64,000 nucleotides of DNA from the human T2T-CHM13v2.0 reference genome, Homo sapiens. The notes beneath the pieces are model-generated. The model did no database searches. It worked only from the letters and a program-made list of their open reading frames with translations, and had not been told where the DNA came from. Location: assembly GCF_009914755.1 (NCBI RefSeq), contig NC_060926.1. One strand, written 5' to 3'. Positions 12,690-55,700 of this stretch are shown here, one piece after another (the stretch's first letter is position 1; each line of letters opens with the position of its first letter). Position numbers and translations under genes: made by a program.

Positions 12690-13185
<496 letters not shown>

Positions 13186-13189
13186 AATA

Positions 13190-13791
<602 letters not shown>

Positions 13792-23203: not shown

Positions 23204-23598
<395 letters not shown>

Positions 23599-24575
23599 TC
23601 AAACCTTCAGCTTCTCTAATATCCCCTGCCACTGACGGATTATTTCACACGAACCAGAGAGGCCATTAGGTGAGAATGCCTTCATCTTCCCTCCCTCCCA
23701 CCTCTGAGCACCCTTCTGTTTCCTTCTGAGCTTCTTCCTATTTCCTCCTGTCGTCCTTCTCCTCTCTAGACCCTGAGGGGTTTCTCTTCTCTTCTAAGGT
23801 TACTTCTTCCTACTGGACTCCTGACACCCCCACCCCCACCCCTGCCCTTGGGAACTTGATTCCATCTCTCTCTCTCTGTCTCTCTGTCTTGCTCCCCGCT
23901 TCTTTTCTCATGTTCCATCTTCTTTCTCCCTCACCTCCTTATAATCCACATCCAAACAAGTCCACATCTCCCCAAAAACTCCATGCCTCCCTTTTGGCCA
24001 AAAAGAACTCTATAGAGCATCAGAAGAATAATTACTAAAAATATATGTTTAAAATAAGTGGCCTTAGTAGTAAGCTCTGAGAATGAGAAGCTTCATTGTC
24101 TAGTAAGTTAATACAAATTAGTCGACAGTCAATGATGACAAGAAGAGAGCGAAATAAGTTTGTACTTACATACCTCAAAACAAAAACTCTCTGAAAAAGC
24201 AGTTTGTTTGTCTCTTGACCTAACAATTCCAGCCTAAGAATATAACAACAACAACAGAAAAGACAAATTCATTTGTAGTAATGGCCATTATAAAAGATGG
24301 ACGGATATTGGAGCATTTGAAGTGGAAAAAAAGTATACAAAATTCATCTTGCTGTGGGACCCTCTCCCCTTTTCTAGGGCCATATGGGTATAGATGCATT
24401 GGGGGAAAAAATGGCTGGAAGAAATACTTTAGGAATGTCCTTTTTTTTTCTTTATATCTTTTGAAATTTCCTACATAAGCTCGTATTACATTTTGTTGGC
24501 AGAAAATCAGATTTATAACCATCCGTCCTCCCTCCCACACAACCTTCTTCCCTCCCACTTGGCCTCAGGCATTGA

Positions 24576-24968
<393 letters not shown>

Positions 24969-32968: not shown

Positions 32969-33982
32969 TGCACCAGATCTCTACCAAATTTTAAGTCAGT
33001 GAAATATAAATGAAAACTTGTTATTTTTACCATGACTGACATCAGTGTTTTTGAGGGCAAAACAGTAGGTGTTCCTTTTTTTTTTTTTTTGTCTAATTAG
33101 AATTCTTGTTTTTATCTGTCCTTAAGGTTTTTCTCTGTCTTTAAGGTTTTTCTCCACTCCTAGGAATGTTCCCTAAGGTTTTGATATAATTCAGGAATTT
33201 GTATTTAGGGAAAGGCAACTGAACCAAGTTACGAGAATGTTTAGAACTTTGGAAGCCCTGGGGAAGACATCTCGCCCATTGCTGGTTGGACAGAGCCAAC
33301 GTGGGGGTTTCTAAACATGCACAAGCTAACAGTCTCCATCAGCTCTGAATTCACTTCTGAGCTTAGCAATGTAAGCTTGTATTATATACAACTTCGTTTC
33401 TTCATGAAACAATCATCATAATAAATTTTGATATACTCGGAAAACTTACCAGGTTTAAATATTTATTATTATTATTAAAATAAATGGAATAATAATGGAC
33501 TGGATTTTAAAGGATCTAGAATTTGACCGTTTTTCTTTTTCAAAACATGATAAATACAGAAAAACCTTTAACAAAATAATAACAGTAATAATAATAATAA
33601 TAGTGGTATGTTTCCTGGGCTAAATTTAGAAAACTATTGAGTATGAGGCAAATATGGAAAACATATTTATATCAAAGGAGGACCTAGAAGCAAACTACCA
33701 TAACTTGCCAAATTCAACTTCTATGTTTGTTATAATTTAGTAATTAGCTATTTTAGAAAAAAAAAGTGCTTCAATAGGGAATTAGGATTTTCAGAATTTT
33801 GAAGCCCTGGGAAATAATTATATCCAGTGCTGTTTAGGTAGAACAAAAAATCAAATCACTTACCTGGAGTAAATCCAAAAAAGTGAAACCATTTTAAAAA
33901 TTATCTTTTTAAATTTCTAAATTAACGTTGTTTAGGCATATACATTGCATTCTGTATAGCTTTTTTTTTCAAATTATTAATA

Positions 33983-34291
33983 TTTTTATTTATTTATTTT
34001 TTTTGAGATTGAGTCTCACTCTGTCGCCCAGGCTGGAGTGCAGTGGCATGATCTCGGCTCATGGCAACCTCTGCCTCCTAGGTTCAAGTGATTCCCCTGC
34101 CTCAGCCTCCCACAGTAGCTGGGATTACAGGCATCTGCCACCATGCCTGGCTAATTTTTTTATTTTTAGTAGAGATGGGGTTTCACCATGTTGGCCAGGC
34201 TGGTCTCGAACTCCTTACCTTGGGTTATCCACCCGCCTCAGCCTCCCAAAGTGCTGGGATTAATTACAGGCGTGAGCCACCATGCCCGGCC
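33983..34291 (-). mobile_element. Alu (AluS-like)
   Basis: Dimeric antisense Alu; TSD caaattat. Confidence 0.95.
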
Positions 34292-34317
34292 CAAATTATC
34301 TTTAACAAAGAATTAGA

Positions 34318-34763
<446 letters not shown>

Positions 34764-34946
34764 AAAGAATTAGATAATACTAAAAAATACCAAATATTTA
34801 ATATTTTTAATACCAATTTTCTAATCCCTTTAAAGTACATAATGAGTTTTAAGAGGATGGGTTCCAGGGTTCTAGACTTTGAGTTCTCAACCTTATGTTC
34901 TTAAATCGGCAAAAGTACCCCCCAAATAAAACAAGATAAAACTTTT

Positions 34947-35253
34947 ACTGAACACAATGGCTCACGACTATAATCCCACCACTTTGGGAGGCCAAGGTAG
35001 GAGGATGGATCACTTGAGCTAAGGAGTTAGAGATCAGCCTGGGCAACATATAGAGATGCCATCTCTACAAAAAATACAAATAGCTGAGTGGGGTGTCACA
35101 GGCCTATAGTCTCAGCTACTCAGGAGGCTGAGGTTGGAGGATGGATTGCTTAAGCCTGGGAGGCAGAGGTTGCAGTGAACCAAGATTGCACCACTGCGCT
35201 CCAGCCCAGGTGACACAGTGAGACCCTGTCTCAGAGGAGAAAAAAAAAAAAAA
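34947..35253 (+). mobile_element. AluJ-like element
   Basis: Dimeric with poly-A tail; TSD aaaacttt. Confidence 0.93.
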
Positions 35254-35458
35254 CTTTCAACATTATAATTTAAAAAGATGTTTTAGGCTTAATTTAGAAA
35301 GTTTACATTGTTCAACAGAAGCCGGGTTTATTTTTAGAGGAATAGTTGGATGCAAACTCTCAAAATTTTCTGAACTTAATGTTTACTTCTGAAACTGCTT
35401 CCTCAGGCTTGTTTTATAAGCTTTGTCTTTTTACAGGCCTTCAGTTTTAGCTTTATCA

Positions 35459-35939
35459 TGGGTTGATCAGCCGTCCTGGTGTTCCTGGGACTGAGGAGTT
35501 TCTTGGGATGTGGGACTCTCAGTGCTAAAACCAGGGATATTTCAGGCAAACTAGAATGACAGAATGAGTTAAGATGGATTATGTCCTGATAAACCCATCA
35601 ATAGTTGGAAGTATCATAAGTTGAAAACGCATGTAATACACCAAACCTACAGAACCTCATAGCTCAGCCTAGCCTACTTTAAATGTACTCAGAACAATAT
35701 ACATTAGGCTGGCTAATGTAATCAGCCTACAGTTGGGCTGAATCATGTAACACAAAGCCTGTTGTATAATAAAGTGTTGAATATCTGTGTCATTTACCTA
35801 ATACTGTCTTGAAAGTGAAAAACACTGGTTATATAGGTATGTGAAGTACAGTTTGGGTATTGTATTGTACCATCATAAAGTAGAAAAATCCTAAGTCAGC
35901 CCATCGTAAGTAGGGGACTGACTGTAGTCAATCACCCTA
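35459..35939 (-). mobile_element. MER81-like (hAT-Blackjack) MITE split by MER47A
   Basis: gggttgatcagccgtcctggtgttcctgggactgagg...gtgctaaaaccaggga...[MER47A]...gtcaatcacccta. Confidence 0.65.
35560..35924 (+). mobile_element. MER47A-like (Tigger-derived) element
   Basis: atgtcctgataaacccatc...catagctcagcctagcctac...ggggactgactg followed by TA. Confidence 0.8.
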
Positions 35940-35984
35940 TTCTTCTTGAACCTCAAAAAGCAAAATCCATCAGTTTAAATGTAG

Positions 35985-36303
<319 letters not shown>

Positions 36304-45519: not shown

Positions 45520-46420
<901 letters not shown>

Positions 46421-46669
46421 TTCAATCAAATAAGTAATGAAATAGTAGCTAGAATATGGAGACTTTAAAATGTCCTCTGTGGATTAGGGGGCTGATGCAT
46501 ACATAGAAAGATTGATTCTCTCAGTTTTATTCCTGGGGAGCCAGGTAGAGAATTTGCTTTTAGGAGGTGGATTTTCATTCCTTGAGCAAAGCTAATAGAT
46601 GAACTTAGCTCATTCTGCCAGGACAGTCTGTCAGTGGAGAGACTGTACTATTAATAGAAAGGAATGTGA

Positions 46670-46961
46670 GGCCGGGTGCGGTGGCTCACGCCTGTAATCC
46701 CAGCACTTTGGGAGGCCGAGGTGGGCAGATCATGAGGTCAGGAGATTGAGATAGACCTGGCTAACACTGTGAAATGCCGTCTCTACTAAAAAAATACAAA
46801 AAATTAGCTGGGCATGGTGGCGGGAGCCTGTAGTCCCCAGCTGCTCGGGAGGCTGAGGCAGGAGAATGGTGTGAACCCAGGAGACGGAGCTTGCAGTGAG
46901 CCAAGATCGTGCCACTGCACTCCAGCCTGGGCAACAGAACGAGTCTCCATCTCAAAAAGAA
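46670..46961 (+). mobile_element. AluY-like element
   Basis: ggagaatggtgtgaacc and ggagcttgcagtg diagnostics; TSD agaaaggaatg(t/a)ga at 46656-46669 and 46962-46975. Confidence 0.95.
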
Positions 46962-47080
46962 AGAAAGGAATGAGAGCTGGACAAGTCATTCCCTGGTCAG
47001 GACACTCCAGAAGCCCTACATGGTTTGCAAAACCATCTGGGCTGTTCCAGCTCCTCCCTGTCTTTAAGCTACAGATCTCA

Positions 47081-47452: not shown

Positions 47453-48967
47453 ATATGTCCTGCTGGGCTTCTTACCCTTAGAGGTGCTCGATAGATAGAA
47501 GATGGCAAAGTGAATCAAGTCTCAGGGCCAAAGCCAGGCTTTTTGTAAGATCTCAAGGCACGATTTAAAACCATGTGCATGAGCTGACAGTTGGATGTCA
47601 GGAGGTCAGGAGTCTAGGTGGTGGTGAATTTTACAACAGAGATGATAACAGCCCCTCCCACTGAGCCCAGTGGATGCTAGATGTTTCCGTAAGGGCTTTC
47701 TGTGTATCCTTAGCCAGTGCCCTTCCCAGGCCCACTGGGCGGGCATCTCATTCTTCTGAGGGCCGTGGAGTCTGGCCATCACCTACCGTGCATGCCGCAC
47801 CCTCCTGAGGCTTTCTGGAGTGTGCTATTTTCCACTTCCTGTTGGACAGACATCTTAAACATCCTTATGTTTCCCAGACATCTCAGTCTGCCTTCCTAGC
47901 ATAATTCTTCTTGTAAGAAATGTAGGATTTTGTGGGTGGCAGGGGGACTAGGGAACATGCATCAGAGATAGCCGCATGCTCTGTCTTAGAGGCATCATCA
48001 GCCTGGGGAACCTGGCCAGCTCTTGTGGACCGCAGTCTAATTGGCCTGCTCCCTGCAGAGTGAGTGGGCTGCTTAGACTTTGCCCACTTGAGGCGTTGCG
48101 AAATAGGATGGTGTGTGTTTTATTTTTTTTTCCTTGTTATTTAAGAAGGAACATTGAAGAGAGCCAGGAGGGTTCCTAGTGGAAAGGAAGGCAGGGAGAA
48201 CAGCTGCACATTAGGATTAAAGGGCCAAGGCAGGACAAGGCCAGGGGAGCTCTGAGGGCAGCTCGTGGGCTGTGTTCGCCAACTGCTGGAGATGGGTGAG
48301 ATGCGGAAAACAAGCAAAATACTGCAAAATGGAAGAAAAATTGACCTTTCCTGTTATCCATTCTCCTCACAGTTTATCAGATGGTGGAAGGAAACACTGT
48401 AATTCTAGAAATAAGCCCCACCCTGACAGTGAGCCCCCACCTCCCAGCGTGGAAATAACCCATTCAGGGCAGTGGCACCCTGCTGCCCACCCTTAGGCTG
48501 CTATAGGCCAGTATAGGCTGGGGTCCCTGCAAGCCCAGGTCTCCTTCAGGGCAGGTGTGGCTCTTCCTCTCCCAGATGACTCAGAAAGCCCCCCAGGGGC
48601 CTGCATGGGTCCTGCCAGGTGGCCAACGCTGAAACAGAATGTGTCTTTGATTTGGGTTGAATTTATAGCCACAGGTCATCTGATTATAGTCAGAAACTCT
48701 GAAGGGAAGTTGCAGGGTTTTTATCAATAAAAAATGTTTAATTTAAAAAAAGAGATTGGCACATAAAAGCTTTTAATATGCAGGGTTGCAAGGGCAGAGA
48801 GAAATAATGAGAGGTCCTGGGTGGGTCAAGGGGGTGGACACCACTGAGCTGGGGCATTGAGACCCTGCCAGCACCAGCTGTGCCCAGTCTGAAGTTTCAG
48901 AGATTGAAGGAAACTTGAAATTACCCACCGAGCCCTGGAGAAATCCTTGGGAGCCCAGACATTTGCT

Positions 48968-49335
48968 TATGTGCGCATGTGTGTCATGTGCATGTGTGTG
49001 TATTGTGTATATATGTGTATTCGGTGTGTTGTATGTGCATGTGTGCTGTGTGTGTTGTGTATGGTATGTGTGTTGTGCGTGCATGTGTGTGTTGTGTGTA
49101 TGTGTATTCAGTGTGTTGTAGGTGCATGTGTGCTGTGTGTGTTGTGTATGGTGTGTGTTGTGCGTGCATGTGTGTGTTGTGTGTTGTGTGCATATGTATG
49201 TTGTGTGTATGTGTATTCAGTGTGTTGTGTGTGCTGTGTGTGTTGTGCGTGCATGTGTTATTTGCATGTTTGTGTTGTGTGTATGTGTTGTGTGTGTGTT
49301 GTATGGTGTGTGTGTTGTGTGTGTATGTATGTATA
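48968..49335. repeat. Degenerate (TG)-rich repeat with internal block duplications
   Basis: Recurring tgtgtattc(a/g)gtgtgttgt and gtgcgtgcatgtgt blocks. Confidence 0.9.
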
Positions 49336-50758
49336 CACAGGATCCACTCTGCATCTGACAAGAGGCTGCCCCAAGCAGGAGTGTCCTCCGATACAACAAG
49401 ACTCGCAGGAACAAGTCTGAGGACTTGACAAGGGACACCTATGTTTGGGAGTGGTCCCAGAACGGTATCCTTAATCTGCCCCTTCACTGCCTTCAACTCT
49501 CATTGTTCTCCTCAATACAGTGAAGTCCTTAAACCACTGGTGACACCAGGGACGTTTTGTGCCTGATGCCCGTCACCGAGACCTTGGAGTGCAGAGCAGG
49601 GCTCCCCTCAGGGCTTAGCTCAGCAGAGTCCTCAGCACAAAGGGCAGCTCAGGAGCCAGTGCTCAGCCACAGATTGGGAAGGCTTCTAAGCCGTAGTCAG
49701 TGGGCAGTGACACGGCCCACGCTTGCTTCATTAACAGCCTAACAAGAGACAGGGGTGAGCGTGTGCCCACTCGCACATGCATGAGAGAGCCAGGGAGGGA
49801 GTCACCTCATGTTATTTAATCACCCTCCAAATATTCAGAGCTGGAGACCACTGCTGCAGACCGCCTCCCACTAAGGACAAGCTGATGTATGTCCCTGAGC
49901 AGGAGAGGATGTCTGTGAGCTGGCTTATTTACAAATACGTGTAAGTGGCAGTTCTTAATTTGCAAATCTGTGTCTTTATAAGACTTGAAGAACAAACAAT
50001 AATACCTGCAGACAGAGGTGGATAAAAGCATTGCTCAGTACTGAGATACATTATCAGTGAAGGCACCCTGAATGCCTCTGGTCTCTGATGGGTATCGCTC
50101 AGTAATCAGCCAGGGAGGTGGTCAAACAGGATGGGAGTTGCTTCCGATCGGTGATTTCCCCATGTGTGCTTAGGTTTCGTCATATTTTTTAGGAATCTCC
50201 CTTCCTCTGAATAGGAAGTGCATGTAAAGGCACACAATGGAACCAGACATAGCTTCCTGTTAGGTCTGTGGGAGGTCATGGCTGGTGAAAGGGCAGGATC
50301 CAAACACAAGCATACCAGGGGAAGAAAACCCAAAAAGACCCCAAAGGTGATCACTGTGCGCTTTGTACAAGTGCTGAGCTTGCCCGAAGAAAGAAAGAGA
50401 CGCAAAAGAGAAGCAGCACTGAGGAAGCCTGGCTCCCGGGCTGCTTTTCATAAAGACAGAGTCAGTGTTGCTGAGACACAGGTGGAAAGTCTTTGTGCTT
50501 GCTTCTTTGATCAGCCCCACTCCCTTCCAACAGAGCCTATCAAGTTTGCTTCCTAATGAGGGCCCCCGAGTGCCGGCTGTGATGGGTGGACCAGGCTGAG
50601 GGAGGGCCGGGAGCCAGGGGAGCCACTCCCAGCTGCCACCCCTGAGGTCTGGGAGGCAGGAGCCCCACCCGTGATCCCCTTTCCCTTCTTTTACTCTCCC
50701 TTCCCTGTTTCTCAGTGCATGTCAGGGAAGCATCAGACAGAACACAGTTCTGCGTCTG

Positions 50759-51082
50759 TCCCTGGAGCGAGGCCGAGTCAAGCCCTGTTGGGGAGGGAGA
50801 GGCCCTGTGGTCGGGCAATGGGGCCAGGCTCCTGCTGGACAGAGGTTGCTTGGGAGGCCACTGAGGGGAGAAAGGAGCTGCTGCAGCACAGCCACACTCC
50901 TGGGCCCCTGGACAGGACAGGATGGGAGAGGACAGAGCACCCCAGCTCTCAGCCCTGCTGCAGTTGTGCGGGTGAAACGGACATCCCCACTAAGGGTCCT
51001 TGGACTCTGTGTCCAGTCCTTGTGGGTGAGGGGGTCTTCCAGACTGTCCCCTAATCCCACCTGGAGCCCAGAGAAGGGGCCG
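50759..51082 (+). repeat. Left arm of long inverted repeat (324 bp)
   Basis: Reverse complement equals 51255-51573 except 2 substitutions and one 5-nt indel (manual base-by-base comparison). Confidence 0.98.
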
Positions 51083-51254
51083 ATGGGGAGGAAGGGGCTG
51101 GGTGGCTCCACTCACCTCCTTTGGTCGTCACTTTTGCTGATGTTTGTGATGTTAAAAGAGATGGAGGGGATGGGCAGGCTAGAATAGGTTTATCTTCCCC
51201 AGTGGTTTCTGTGTGGAATGGAAAACCCTGAGCCCTGCCTGCTGAAGTGAGGTG

Positions 51255-51573
51255 CGGCCCCTTCTCTGGGCTCCAGGTGGGATTGGGGGACAGTCTGGAA
51301 GACCCCCTCACCCACAAGGACTGGACACAGAGTCCAAGGACCCTTAGTGGGGATGTCCGTTTCACCCGCACAACTGCAGCAGGGCTGAGAGCTGGGGTGC
51401 TCTGTCCTCTCCCATCCTGTCCTGTCCAGGGGCCCAGGAGTGTGGCTGCAGCAGCTCCTTTCTCCCCTCAGTGGCCTCCCAAGCAACCTCTGTCCAGCAG
51501 GAGCCTGGCCCCATTGCCCGACCACAGGGCCTCTCCCTCCCCAACAGGGCTTGACTGGGCCTCGCTCCAGGGA
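51255..51573 (-). repeat. Right arm of long inverted repeat (319 bp)
   Basis: See left arm; the ORF track shows identical peptides on opposite strands here. Confidence 0.98.
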
Positions 51574-51926
51574 GAGGTCCCCCACTGAACAATTTTTAAC
51601 TTCAAGATGGTGCAGAAGCGATACACATTCAGTAGAATCTTTACTTTGAGTTCCTACACAATCACTCTATTTTTCACTTTCAGGGCAGTGTTCAATAAAC
51701 TGCATAAGTTATTTAATACTTTATTATAAAAAAAAAAAGGCTTTGAGTCTGATGATGTCGCCTACTATAGGCTAATGTGCGTGTTCTGAGCATGTTTAAG
51801 GTGAGCCAGGCTATGCTATGAGGTTTGCCAGGTTGGGTGTATTCAATGAATTTCAGACCTAATGATATTTTCAATTTATGTTGGGTTTATCAAAATGTAA
51901 CCCCATTATAAGTCAGGAAGCATCTG
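51574..51926 (-). mobile_element. MER47A-like (Tigger-derived) element
   Basis: Inverted homolog of 35560-35924; ends ggaagcatctg then TA at 51927-51928; left terminus lacks TA-CAG. Confidence 0.8.
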
Positions 51927-52413
51927 TATCTTTTTCCGTTTTCTGGGGGACACAAATGTCTGAGGAGGACCTTCTGAGCCCTAAGACATGCCCAGGTGAT
52001 GAGGCTTGAGGACAGCTCCTCCCAGGCACAGCCCTTTCTCTTGTCCCGCACTGTGCTCTGTCCATGGAGCCACGAGGCACAAGGGCCGCACGTGGATTTT
52101 GTGCTGAGTGGCATTGGAAGCGTGGGCATCATAGGCAGTTTCCCTGGGGGAGAGGGACCACAGGCTGAGATTCCTCTCCAACCTTCGCCCTGGGAGCAGC
52201 TACTGTGATAGAGCCAGATTCCCAAGTTCTCATTCATGGTATTTTGAAATGACATAAAGGGACTGCCACCAAACAAGGCAGGATAGCAGCAGCCAAGATG
52301 GGAAAACCTTGCCTTCCCCCCGGGAGAACAGAGGGAGCCTCCCCACACACCGTGTAATTTCCAGAAAACACTGGTGCTTCTCCATGGCTCTGCTGGCCGA
52401 CCACATCCTCCTA

Positions 52414-52781
<368 letters not shown>

Positions 52782-55700
52782 TTACCAAGATACTTGTGCA
52801 TTTTAGGAATTGGGACCAAGACTCCAGAATGTTCGTGTGCTCAGGCATTTGTTCATTACATCATCCTCAGTCCCAGTGTCCCCTCATCCCCTCCCAGGAA
52901 AGCAAAACGTAACTACTACTAATAAGCTGGTTGTACAGAGAATTCCTAGCTGTACAGAAATTAATGAAGCCCTAGGAAAGAGAATGTGATGAAATACTTA
53001 ATAGATTGCGATTGAAGCCACTGTCTGAAGCTGAAGGAAGCAGGATGCCGTGAGCTTGGCTGCCGTGGGGCAGGGGCACCAGTCCCTCTTCTCTACCCAA
53101 CCACCCTCCTCCCAGCAGTCTCAGCCCCCACCTGGGGGTGTTGGAGGAGTGTTTGGATTGATGATCAGCAAATTGGGGCAGCATGTGGCCTGTCACAAGG
53201 AAGATCTGGGGGGTGAGGATGCTGGTTAGGCTGGAACACCTGAAGCGTAACCTTAAGGCGAGTCTGTGGTTGCCTGAGGTGGCAAGCAGCCCTGTTGGAG
53301 TGCCGGGCATGGGGAGGATTGCCATTCAGAGTCAGAAAGCTGCCTAGCGGGATAGGCAGGCTCATAGAGTGGCTGTGATTCCTGCTGTAGGACTGGCTGA
53401 GGGTGCCTGCAGCTGCCACAGGGAAGGAAACATTTCTTCTTGTTTCCACTGCCTGAGCTGGGGCTCTGAGCCACTGGACTTAATGTGGACAGGAGGGTGA
53501 GTAGAACCCATCCATTCCTCTGTGATCAGCAGTGACAGCCCGGGGCAGTGTGGCCGTTTCAGGTCAAAGCGGACTTCATCCCAGGAGGCCACGGGTGCAG
53601 GGCATGACCCAGAGATACTGGGTGCTAAGCAGAGGTATGACATAGGTGTCTTGGCCCCGTATCTGGGCCACGCAGGTGGTGTCTGGAGCATCCTTTGGAG
53701 ACCGTTCCTGGACTGTTACTCCTCTTATGTAGATTGACCTTTCTCTAGCTGGGGATGTTGGGCCAGGCATACCTGCCCATGGAAAACCAAAACTGTTACA
53801 GACAGAAGTCACAGTGACAGAGCGTTGGTAGGATGGAGTGGCCAGGGAACCTGTGAGAGGAGCCTGTACCGACACTGCCTGCCTCACACAGCATCAGGAG
53901 GGAGACACCAGCGGGGCCCTCCATGGCTAAGTGGGTTCTGCTTCTGAATTGCAATTTCTTTTATATGTTTATTCCATTTTCTGGGTCACCCCTCATTGAA
54001 CATTTACTATGTGCCTGGTGATGTCCTGAGTATACATTAGTCTAAGGCGGAGTCAGTGTTGATCCATTCCACCCCAGCTCAAGCACCCAGCCAGCGAACG
54101 GGGCGAAGTGCAGGCAGAGAGCCAGAAGCAGTGAGGGTGTGTGCTTGGCTTCCTGGAGTATTTGCTAATGAGCAAAACAAGGTTTGCCGGCTTGAAATGG
54201 AAAAGCAACAGGGAACCAGGAATGAATTGCTCCAGAAAAGCCCTGGCCCTGCACCCAGGAGTCTCCTACCTTGTTTGGTGTGAAATCTGTAAACATCTCC
54301 TTCCTCAGAGACACAGCTCCTCCCAGGAGGAACCTAGAGGGATGTGCAAAGAAAATCTCAACCCAAAAGCTCAAAACTGTAGAGTAAAAACATTTCACAT
54401 TTGGCTTTTGGAGTAAGAGTTTTTCAACAATGGATACAGACCATATTGCTGTTCACTTTCCCGTAAATCAACGTGAGACTTTGCTGTCAGCCAACATGAC
54501 AGCAGTGAACAGAGCCCAGGGAACCCCTCAAACTCAAGATAGTCAAGTTGTAACTATGGCATCCCAGCCAGGACCTTCTGGAGTGGGGACCAACAATGGG
54601 GTGAGGCCCCGTGTGGTTCCCAGGATGCCAGAAGCCCCATATCCAGATACGTGGTGGGTGCTGCATTGTCATTTAGGACGAAGGGCCCCCCTCTGCCAAT
54701 TCACTGCCTGTTTGCACAGAAAGTCGTGTGTCCTCAGTATTGGACTTTTGTGGTATCAGTATTGAGGCCCACAATGTATCTGACTATCTTTAAAATGCTG
54801 TACAAATCTGAATTGAATATAAGTATCCTATAACTGGAGTATTGAATGCGGCTAGAATCATCCCAAGGCAGAATTGAGATTCTAACCGCTACGCACACAC
54901 ACTCACAGCCCTGGATCCTCCTTTGTGTGTGTTCTTTCAACATGGTGATGGATAATTTTCAGAATGGGGTCTTTGGGTACATCTGGTATGGGTGAACCAT
55001 ATCTTGACACTGAGTGACATTGGGGTGCTGCCCTGTCCCATCCCTGTGTCATGGCCGGGCCTCCTGCCCCCACCACTCAGGGCAGCCCGTCTGCCTCTGG
55101 CCAGCTGTCGGAGCTGGACTTATCCCTCCCTGGTCTGAGGAATAAGATGTACCCTTGGGTCAGAACCCCCCACAGCCCTCTGCAATGACTGTCTGACAGC
55201 CTTTTTCCTAGTAAGCTGCTTCTTGCTTGTCTAGGTGAAATCTCTAGCAATTGCCCAACCAAAAACTGGGTCTTGGAGCTGATGGCTACACATCCCCTGA
55301 GGGTACCTCTGAAAAGCAAGACCTTTTGAAGGATGGAACCCTGAAGAGCTGGTGCAGAAGCAGGACTGTGCAGGCACCATGAGGGCAAGCACGAAGCCAG
55401 CTGTCTGCACAGACCCACCAGCATCCCGCAGCTCCACACTGCTTTCCTGGTGTGTGGGACGCAGGGAGCCCCCTTCGCCTCTAACTGTGTGCTGCACTCA
55501 CAGGGGCCGAGTAGGGTGTGTTTCTTTTGGTGATGATGTCTACTTGGGCTGAAGGCTCAGAGCGCTCGTTCCTTTGGAGACCCTGCTGCAGGCGAGTGGT
55601 GAGCACATGCTTCCGCACAGACACAGCTGCCAACGGTCCTCCTCCACACCAGCGCTGAGTTGTCATGGAGACAATACAGGCTGGGCTGTGTGTGGTCAGC

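What the first reader, a model, noticed from the sequence alone, without database searches (positions are those of the whole stretch)
50759..51573. Near-perfect 320-bp inverted duplication of non-TE sequence with a 172-bp spacer
Seen: arms 50759-51082 and 51255-51573 are reverse complements with only 2 substitutions and one 5-nt indel; nearly all CpGs are shared; I recognise no transposon in the arms. Established: long, near-identical inverted repeats with short spacers are rare and unstable, can flip their spacer by arm-to-arm recombination and homogenise by gene conversion, and when transcribed give dsRNA far more perfect than Alu pairs (ADAR hyper-editing, Dicer, PKR/MDA5 substrates). Inference: either a very recent fold-back/template-switch duplication or an older repeat kept identical by conversion; it could be a polymorphic micro-inversion and an unannotated intronic hairpin-RNA/endo-siRNA source. 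This is the best candidate for something undescribed in the window.
Basis: partly seen in the sequence, partly recalled or inferred. Interest (0 to 1): 0.8.

Follow-up and report, generated by a model that had tools for sequence, protein, structure and literature searches.

The report
Unique intronic inverted duplication in SH3RF3
A 0.32-kb stretch inside an intron of the human SH3RF3 gene has been copied once, backwards, 172 bases downstream, most likely by a DNA-copying slip; the repeat is real and unique but of a known kind, and no function is shown.

Summary
The arms are 50756-51082 and 51255-51576, or 50759-51573 if the last mismatch is excluded, with a unique 172-nt spacer. They differ by 2-3 substitutions and one 5-nt indel. 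A search of the whole T2T genome finds the arm only at these two places. The spacer and the left flank are single-copy.

The right arm abuts an old, TA-flanked, multi-copy DNA transposon. This copy lacks its 5' TA and about 26 terminal bases exactly at the junction, while all 11 compared copies keep them. So that junction is a rearrangement breakpoint. The simplest reading is that the left arm and spacer are parental and the right arm is a reverse-complement copy. A replication template switch or fold-back repair would have made it, removing some sequence in the process.

Naive age is 6-9 My (CI 0.8-27). Gene conversion would make it older, and error-prone copying would make it younger.

As sense pre-mRNA the locus folds into a roughly 320-bp near-perfect hairpin. 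That is a rare class, but one already catalogued genome-wide.

Ape genomes, human haplotypes and RNA data could not be consulted. I rate it a new member of a known kind, of modest interest.

The parts
50200..50755 (.). Left flank: single-copy DNA, compositionally continuous with the left arm
   Evidence: One search finds 1 place in the genome, which is itself. GC is 0.54-0.63 over 50400-50799, running into the arm at 0.62-0.65. No hit of the transposon profile in 50300-51300, even at E <= 1000.
50756..51082 (.). Left arm (327 nt), inferred to be the parental copy
   Evidence: GC 0.64, 6 CpG, CpG observed/expected 0.18. It carries the extra 5 nt at about 50884-50892.
51083..51254 (.). Spacer (172 nt), single-copy; forms the loop of the hairpin
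   Evidence: One search finds 1 place in the genome, which is itself. GC 0.52. In the RNA fold it forms only small local stems.
51255..51576 (.). Right arm (322 nt), reverse complement of the left arm, inferred to be the derived copy
   Evidence: 98% over 327 query bases, minus strand. Its outer end meets the truncated transposon.
51574..51581 (.). Junction zone between the last sure arm base (51573) and the first transposon base aligned by the profile (51581/51582)
   Evidence: One search puts the mismatch at 51574. One search starts the local alignment at 51581, which is model position 28. (glocal alignment) deletes model positions 1-28, with the first aligned base at 51582. By eye these 8 nt resemble part of the transposon's terminal repeat, so the exact breakpoint is uncertain by 0-8 nt.
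51582..51928 (+). Old non-autonomous DNA transposon copy (TA target duplication, CAG...CTG termini, about 366 nt when complete), lacking its 5' TA and about 26 terminal bases
   Evidence: 1549 first-look candidates, of which 40 were scored; 39 lie elsewhere in the genome at 74-79% identity. One search aligns it with 12 copies; nhmmer E = 6.6e-87, model positions 28-370 of 370. The 3' end is CTG at 51926, followed by TA at 51927-51928. The family name was not determined.

Best explanation
This is a one-off local inverted duplication, not a mobile element and not an assembly error. The ancestral sequence ran: left flank, left arm, spacer, some further sequence, then an old DNA transposon. In one event a growing DNA strand that had reached the end of the spacer switched template. 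It either copied the complementary strand or folded back on itself. It copied the left arm backwards from 51082 to about 50759, then returned to the original template about 26 bases inside the transposon. This skipped the transposon's end, its TA and whatever lay before it. In the four-point template-switch model the order of switch points is 3-2-1-4, the type that creates an inverted repeat. A double-strand break repaired by fold-back synthesis and end joining would give the same product. What is shown: the arms are unique to this locus, the spacer is unique, and the right-arm/transposon junction is a breakpoint. What is inferred: which arm is the copy, the replicative mechanism, and the age. 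The locus lies in an intron of SH3RF3 on the sense strand. Its main expected consequence is therefore a roughly 320-bp near-perfect hairpin in the pre-mRNA, removed with the intron. I take it to be a neutral by-product with no function of its own.
For: The arm occurs at 2 places in the whole genome, which are the two arms. The spacer and left flank are single-copy. The arms differ at 3 substitutions and one 5-nt indel, and the spacer is non-palindromic. The transposon next to the right arm is aligned only from model position 28/29 of 370, whereas 11 of 11 compared copies carry the 5' terminal part. The end of arm homology and the truncation of the transposon thus coincide within 0-8 nt. One event explains both if the right arm is the copy. 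If the left arm were the copy, the coincidence would be chance. The left arm is compositionally continuous with its unique left flank, while the right arm abuts AT-rich transposon DNA at GC 0.35. There is no direct repeat of 6 nt or more at the outer borders, and no trace of the missing transposon end left of the unit. [quoted passage not shown]
Against: No outgroup or second human haplotype could be examined, so polarity and age are inferred from one sequence. Microhomology at the switch points cannot be read without the ancestral sequence, since it would now be hidden inside the arms. By eye, the 8 nt at 51574-51581 can also be read as the transposon's first sub-repeat with an internal 15-nt deletion. 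In that reading the junction sits at the very end of the element, which is an odd coincidence for a random breakpoint. The transposon copy could have lost its end in a separate, earlier deletion. The published template-switch events are tens of bases long; PMC5453318 filtered its events at a copied fragment of at least 14 bp and describes them as short. A 324-nt copied fragment is much longer than those.
Confidence: 0.65

Rival explanations
1. The repeat is an old inverted repeat, tens of millions of years old, whose arms are kept about 99% alike by arm-to-arm gene conversion. This does not conflict with a template-switch origin; it changes only the age.
For: The naive age interval reaches 27 My. 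Conversion between closely spaced inverted arms is well established for large palindromes (my own knowledge, not checked in a paper here). The neighbouring transposon is old, since its copies are 74-79% alike, so an old event is not excluded.
Against: The arms are only 0.32 kb. The longest uninterrupted identity is about 160 bp, a short substrate for conversion. The other inverted pairs in the window have drifted to 72-83%, though those started as diverged repeat copies and so are a weak control.
Confidence: 0.15
2. This is the mirror event: the right arm is the original flank of the transposon, and the left arm is the copy, inserted between the left flank and the spacer.
For: The structure is symmetrical, and nothing in the arms themselves polarises the differences.
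Against: The duplicated segment would have to end, by chance, within 0-8 nt of the point where the transposon had been truncated earlier. The transposon's TA and end are missing here, unlike in 11 of 11 compared copies. The left arm matches its left flank in composition.
Confidence: 0.15
3. The repeat derives from transposable elements: either a foldback or miniature element with long terminal inverted repeats, or two inverted insertions of one repeat family, like an inverted Alu pair.
For: [quoted passage not shown] In the dsRNAscan preprint most long, highly paired dsRNAs form between inverted LINEs (PMC11838218). NCBI's mask is incomplete: the neighbouring transposon is unmasked, so an unmasked arm proves little.
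Against: There are only 2 genomic places for the arm, against 1549 candidates for the true transposon next door under the same tool. There is no target-site duplication of 6 nt or more. Even if the arm held a very old repeat fragment too diverged for this search, 99% identity between the arms would still require a recent local copy.
Confidence: 0.02
4. The repeat is an assembly or sequencing artefact, that is, a fold-back chimera.
For: Palindromic chimeric reads are a known artefact of long-read libraries (my own knowledge).
Against: Such artefacts give identical arms joined head to head. Here the arms differ at 4 sites and are separated by 172 nt of unique sequence.
Confidence: 0.02
5. The locus is a functional hairpin-RNA gene: a source of endo-siRNA or microRNA-like RNAs, or a selected ADAR / innate-immune dsRNA element.
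For: The sense-strand RNA folds into a stem of about 320 bp with 3 mismatches and one 5-nt bulge. That length and pairing meet the >300 bp, >96% paired criterion used for putative MDA5 substrates (PMC11838218).
Against: No Rfam family matches in the arms at E <= 1, apart from an 11-bit chance-level hit. The locus is deep in an intron, so the hairpin is removed from the mRNA. Barak et al. (PMC7006430, abstract) find such structures nearly absent from mRNAs but not from pre-mRNAs, meaning they are tolerated there without need of a function. No paper links SH3RF3 to such an RNA.
Confidence: 0.06

Closest known systems
Template-switch mutations of the four-point model, type 3-2-1-4 / 1-4-3-2 (Loytynoja & Goldman 2017, PMC5453318)
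   Same: [quoted passage not shown] This creates a new inverted repeat able to form a hairpin, and it can delete the sequence that was skipped (passages read).
   Different: Published events are short, tens of bases, with a filter at a copied fragment of at least 14 bp. Here the copied fragment is about 324 nt with a 172-nt spacer. The ancestral state is not observed here.
Fold-back / MMBIR inverted duplications of genomic disorders and cancer (e.g. DUP-TRP/INV-DUP; PMC4352052, PMC2621351)
   Same: They share replicative template switching to the opposite strand, and the copying is error-prone, leaving point mutations and small indels near junctions (passage). Here the 3 substitutions lie 3, 20 and 31 nt from the arm ends.
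   Different: Those events span kilobases to megabases and usually use pre-existing inverted repeats. This one is sub-kilobase, with no pre-existing repeat visible.
Long, highly paired predicted dsRNAs of the human genome (dsRNAscan, Andrews & Bass preprint, PMC11838218)
   Same: The stem is over 300 bp and over 96% paired. The preprint counts 2,018 such structures in the genome (section read).
   Different: Most of those form between inverted LINEs and 88% are intergenic. This one is non-repetitive and intronic. Whether their catalogue lists it could not be checked: the one supplementary file held does not name SH3RF3, and the web resource is out of reach.
Inverted Alu pairs in introns
   Same: They have similar arm length (about 300 nt) and an intronic hairpin that ADAR would be expected to edit.
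   Different: Alu pairs in this window are 72-83% complementary and come from independent insertions. Here the arms are 99% complementary and come from one local copying event.
Large X/Y-chromosome palindromes kept alike by gene conversion
   Same: They share the inverted arm - spacer - arm layout with arm identity of about 99% or more.
   Different: Their arms are many kilobases long and carry genes. Here the arms are 0.32 kb of non-coding intron. Conversion was not tested.

Membership tests
Template-switch / fold-back inverted duplication | A reverse-complement copy of sequence lying close by on the same chromosome | tested here: met
   The arms are 172 nt apart and 99% complementary.
Template-switch / fold-back inverted duplication | The copied sequence is native to the locus, single-copy apart from the new copy | tested here: met
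   There are 2 genomic places only. The flank and spacer are unique.
Template-switch / fold-back inverted duplication | A junction that breaks pre-existing sequence, as a breakpoint does | tested here: met
   The transposon copy lacks model positions 1-28 at the junction, while 11 of 11 other copies have them.
Template-switch / fold-back inverted duplication | Ancestral state without the copy seen in an outgroup or another haplotype | not testable with these tools
   No primate genomes or human haplotypes are held.
Template-switch / fold-back inverted duplication | Microhomology at the switch points | tested here: inconclusive
   The outer junction allows 0-3 matching bases. The inner junction cannot be read without the ancestor.
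Transposon with long terminal inverted repeats, or an inverted pair of one repeat family | Arms belong to a multi-copy family | tested here: not met
   One search finds 2 places, against 1549 candidates for the neighbouring transposon.
Transposon with long terminal inverted repeats, or an inverted pair of one repeat family | Target-site duplication flanking the unit | tested here: not met
   There is no shared direct word of 6 nt or more at the borders, only two 5-mers.
Palindrome maintained by gene conversion | Arm-to-arm identity higher than identity of each arm to its ortholog | not testable with these tools
   No ape sequence is available.
Long highly paired dsRNA (>300 bp, >96% paired; PMC11838218) | Stem length and pairing | tested here: met
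   319 matched positions of 322 aligned, plus one 5-nt bulge. The minimum-free-energy structure pairs the arms end to end.
Long highly paired dsRNA (>300 bp, >96% paired; PMC11838218) | Both arms transcribed in one RNA | not testable with these tools
   This is inferred only from the hub's table: the window lies inside SH3RF3 on the + strand and holds no exon.
microRNA / known structured RNA family | Match to a curated covariance model | tested here: not met
   Rfam at E <= 1 over 49500-52800 gives nothing in the arms but an 11.2-bit hit, against a gathering score of 70.

The most novel reading that the evidence does not exclude
The repeat is a young (human- or great-ape-specific), non-repetitive, near-perfect 320-bp intronic hairpin in SH3RF3. 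It would be heavily edited by ADAR or diced into small RNAs in tissues expressing the gene. Its 172-nt spacer would flip between haplotypes by arm-to-arm recombination. That would make it a natural, single-copy model of how a brand-new perfect dsRNA is tolerated, and possibly a cis-modifier of SH3RF3 expression.
Probability: 0.1. Interest if true: 0.55.

Novelty: new member of a known kind. Interest (0 to 1): 0.3.

Why it matters
If the polarity inferred here is right, the locus is a clean, unusually long example of a one-step template-switch duplication. Its copied fragment is about 324 nt, against tens of bases in the published surveys, and one breakpoint is fixed by a truncated transposon.

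Such events are one way in which new hairpin RNAs arise. Non-repetitive stems over 300 bp with about 98% pairing inside genes are rare. [quoted passage not shown] The locus could therefore serve as a test case for ADAR editing and for tolerance of perfect intronic dsRNA.

Nothing found here suggests a new kind of element or a function.

Tried and rejected
- **Rfam.** No family matches in the arms. The hits at 52485-52743 are Alu-type: SRP-like, with mir-1268 and mir-3135 below their gathering scores.
- **Open frames.** Twelve stop-free stretches of at least 70 aa overlap the region. That is expected for GC-rich DNA read on both strands of an inverted repeat. I did not follow them up, and no protein search was made.
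- **CTCF-like core motif, recalled from memory.** There are 8 matches in the window at up to 2 mismatches, against 9.4 expected, and none falls in the arms. The idea of a pair of mirrored insulator sites was dropped.
- **Bacterial promoter/terminator scan.** It found 0 sites. The tool is irrelevant to a human intron, so the call was wasted.
- **Whole-unit insertion into the transposon.** There is no profile hit for the missing transposon end left of the unit, even at E <= 1000, and no target duplication. Rejected.
- **Lenient self-BLAST.** One 841-column alignment runs across the spacer at 84.7%. This is only the two arms bridged through an unrelated spacer, not a palindromic spacer.
- **Literature.** SH3RF3 with 'inverted repeat' gave 1 paper. 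I read its passages; it is unrelated and concerns SH3RF3-AS1. SH3RF3 with 'dsRNA' gave 8 papers, 7 of them listed; I saw the listing only, and none is about this locus. SH3RF3 with 'A-to-I' gave 1 paper, unrelated.
- **Supplementary files searched for SH3RF3, and some for approximate coordinates.**
  - PMC11838218: 1 file, nothing.
  - PMC7006430: 3 files, nothing.
  - PMC4057610: 6 files, nothing.
  - PMC8755829: the file is a picture-only PDF and could not be read. That paper's microinversions are 17-33 nt in any case (abstract).

Full report

Yes. The repeat finder on 50000-52400 returns two collinear inverted pairs: 50889-51082/51255-51448 (194 nt, 99%) and 50756-50887/51445-51576 (132 nt, 98%). 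A gapped alignment joins them into one pair, 50756-51082 against the reverse complement of 51255-51576, with 3 substitutions and one 5-nt gap.

The differences are at 50758/51574, 50775/51557 and 51052/51285, and the left arm has 5 extra bases within about 50884-50892. The first mismatch is the third base from the outer end.

The spacer is 51083-51254 (172 nt). The left arm has 6 CpGs and the right arm 5. CpG observed/expected is 0.15-0.18, which is ordinary CpG-depleted DNA and not an island.

The five other inverted pairs of at least 100 nt within 3 kb in the whole window are 72-83% complementary. They lie in stretches the hub lists as masked repeats. As RNA, 50730-51600 folds at -843.9 kcal/mol, against -393.8 +/- 8.7 for 20 shuffles (z = -51.9).

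**2. Is the arm a repeat family?**

No, as far as this search can see. A search of the window's own genome (3.1 Gb, 24 contigs) with the left arm finds 2 candidates, and both are the arms themselves. The spacer and the left flank 50200-50755 each find only themselves at E <= 10.

The same tool readily finds a true repeat next door, so it can detect families whose copies are about 75% alike. Fragments of much older repeats could be missed. That would not change the conclusion, because 99% identity between the arms still requires a local copy.

The hub's mask covers only 11% of the window and does not include the neighbouring transposon. An unmasked arm is therefore not evidence by itself.

**3. 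What lies next to it?**

The right flank 51577-52100 hits 1549 first-look candidates. Of these, 40 were scored and 39 lie elsewhere in the genome, at 74-79% identity over query positions about 5-17 to about 334-360.

I fetched 12 of them with flanks and aligned them with the window. The family is about 365 nt long, is flanked by TA, and has CAG...CTG termini within terminal inverted repeats. From my own knowledge that is the signature of a Tc1/mariner-pogo type non-autonomous DNA transposon. I did not establish a family name.

I built a profile from 11 of the 12 copies; one was dropped because its 5' end looked different. The profile aligns the window copy from model position 28 (window 51581) to the last position, 370 (window 51928), with E = 6.6e-87. 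A glocal alignment deletes model positions 1-28 and starts at 51582.

The 3' end is complete: CTG at 51926, then TA. The 5' TA and about 26 terminal bases are absent, while 11 of 11 compared copies carry that part. The last sure arm base is 51573. So the end of arm homology and the start of recognisable transposon lie 0-8 nt apart.

**4. What this implies.**

The transposon family is old and the arms are young-looking, so the right-arm/transposon junction is a secondary breakpoint.

If the right arm is the copy, one event explains both the new arm and the loss of the transposon's end. If the left arm were the copy, the duplicated segment would have to stop by chance at a pre-existing truncation. 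I put the odds at roughly 4 or 5 to 1 for 'right arm = copy'.

Composition agrees. GC of 0.58-0.64 runs from the unique left flank into the left arm, whereas the right arm meets DNA at GC 0.35.

A rival in which the whole arm-spacer-arm unit was inserted is not supported. No trace of the missing transposon end lies left of the unit, even at E <= 1000. There is also no direct repeat of 6 nt or more at the borders, and no donor copy exists elsewhere.

**5. Mechanism (inferred).**

The layout fits the four-point template-switch model of Loytynoja & Goldman (PMC5453318, passages read).

- Replication proceeds to point 1, the end of the spacer at 51254.
- It switches to point 2 (51082) and copies in reverse complement to point 3 (about 50759).
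- It returns at point 4, inside the transposon.

The order along the reference is 3-2-1-4. The paper says this type creates an inverted repeat; together with its mirror it made up 31% of their high-confidence human-chimp events. A break repaired by fold-back synthesis and joining gives the same product, and I cannot tell the two apart.

Those published events are short. A copied fragment of about 324 nt is long for the class and closer in spirit to MMBIR-type rearrangements (PMC2621351, listing only; PMC4352052, passages).

**6. Age.**

Two or three substitutions in 319-322 aligned bases give K = 0.006-0.009. I used a rate of 0.5e-9 per site per year, recalled from memory and not taken from a call. 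That gives 6-9 My, with Poisson limits of 0.8-27 My.

Two effects pull in opposite directions.

- Gene conversion between the arms would make the repeat older than it looks.
- Error-prone copying would make it younger. BIR/MMBIR synthesis is reported to induce point mutations and small indels (PMC4352052, citing Carvalho et al. 2013, which I did not read). Here the three substitutions lie 3, 20 and 31 nt from the arm ends. For a uniform spread that has a post-hoc probability of about 0.005-0.04 (my arithmetic); with only three events it is suggestive at most.

Whether the repeat is human-specific, ape-wide or polymorphic therefore stays open.

**7. Consequences.**

The review PMC7999016 (passages) states that risk rises with longer, more similar arms and shorter spacers. 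It also states that fork stalling in yeast and primate cells was seen at inverted Alus with a 12-bp spacer but not with a 52-bp spacer. With 172 nt between the arms I expect this locus to be fairly stable. The longest uninterrupted identity is about 160 bp, so spacer flipping by recombination is possible, but the substrate is short.

*RNA.* The hub's table puts the window inside SH3RF3 on the + strand with no exon in it. The sense pre-mRNA should therefore carry a stem of about 320 bp with 3 mismatches and a 5-nt bulge.

This meets the >300 bp, >96% paired criterion of the dsRNAscan preprint. That preprint counts 2,018 such structures genome-wide, most between inverted LINEs and 88% intergenic. 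It counts about 2 non-repetitive dsRNAs per Mb (PMC11838218, sections 9 and 10 read).

[quoted passage not shown] An intronic one is thus tolerated, and editing by ADAR is the expected fate if it is transcribed. None of this was testable here.

**8. Known or new?**

I found no paper on this locus. SH3RF3 does not appear in the supplementary files I could search, and one supplement could not be read. The dsRNAscan web catalogue may well list the locus, but I could not look.

Both the kind of structure and the kind of mutation are well described. I therefore file it as a new member of a known kind. It is notable only for the length of the copied fragment, for the non-repetitive arms, and for the transposon that marks one breakpoint.

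**9. Verdict.**

| Question | Assessment |
|---|---|
| Observation | Confirmed |
| Interest | 0.3 |

Noticed in passing
window 51582-51928: This old, TA-flanked DNA transposon copy has 1549 first-look candidates in the genome and copies about 75% alike. It is not among the stretches the hub lists as masked, although shorter stretches are listed. NCBI's soft mask therefore misses old repeats in this window.
   Followed up: yes
window 48960-49334: This G/T-rich stretch has strong strand skews (GC skew up to 0.74, AT skew down to -0.70). It also shows many staggered self-matches at 72-77%. It looks like a degenerate tandem repeat.
   Followed up: no
window 52485-52743: An Alu-type element lies here. 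Rfam gives SRP-like hits (47.6 and 30.6 bits, below the gathering score of 70) and sub-threshold mir-1268 and mir-3135 hits. It coincides with the masked stretch 52480-52754.
   Followed up: no
window 12842-13560, 23348-24895, 33960-36114, 45819-46970: Five further inverted pairs of 105-145 nt are 72-83% complementary. All lie in stretches listed as masked, so they are presumably inverted Alu or other repeat pairs. They served as the background against which the 99% pair stands out.
   Followed up: partly
hub gene table (whole window): RANBP2 is listed with a span of more than 1.1 Mb (-497916..625989) covering the window, with no exon in it. That looks like an oddity of the T2T annotation rather than biology.
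   Followed up: no
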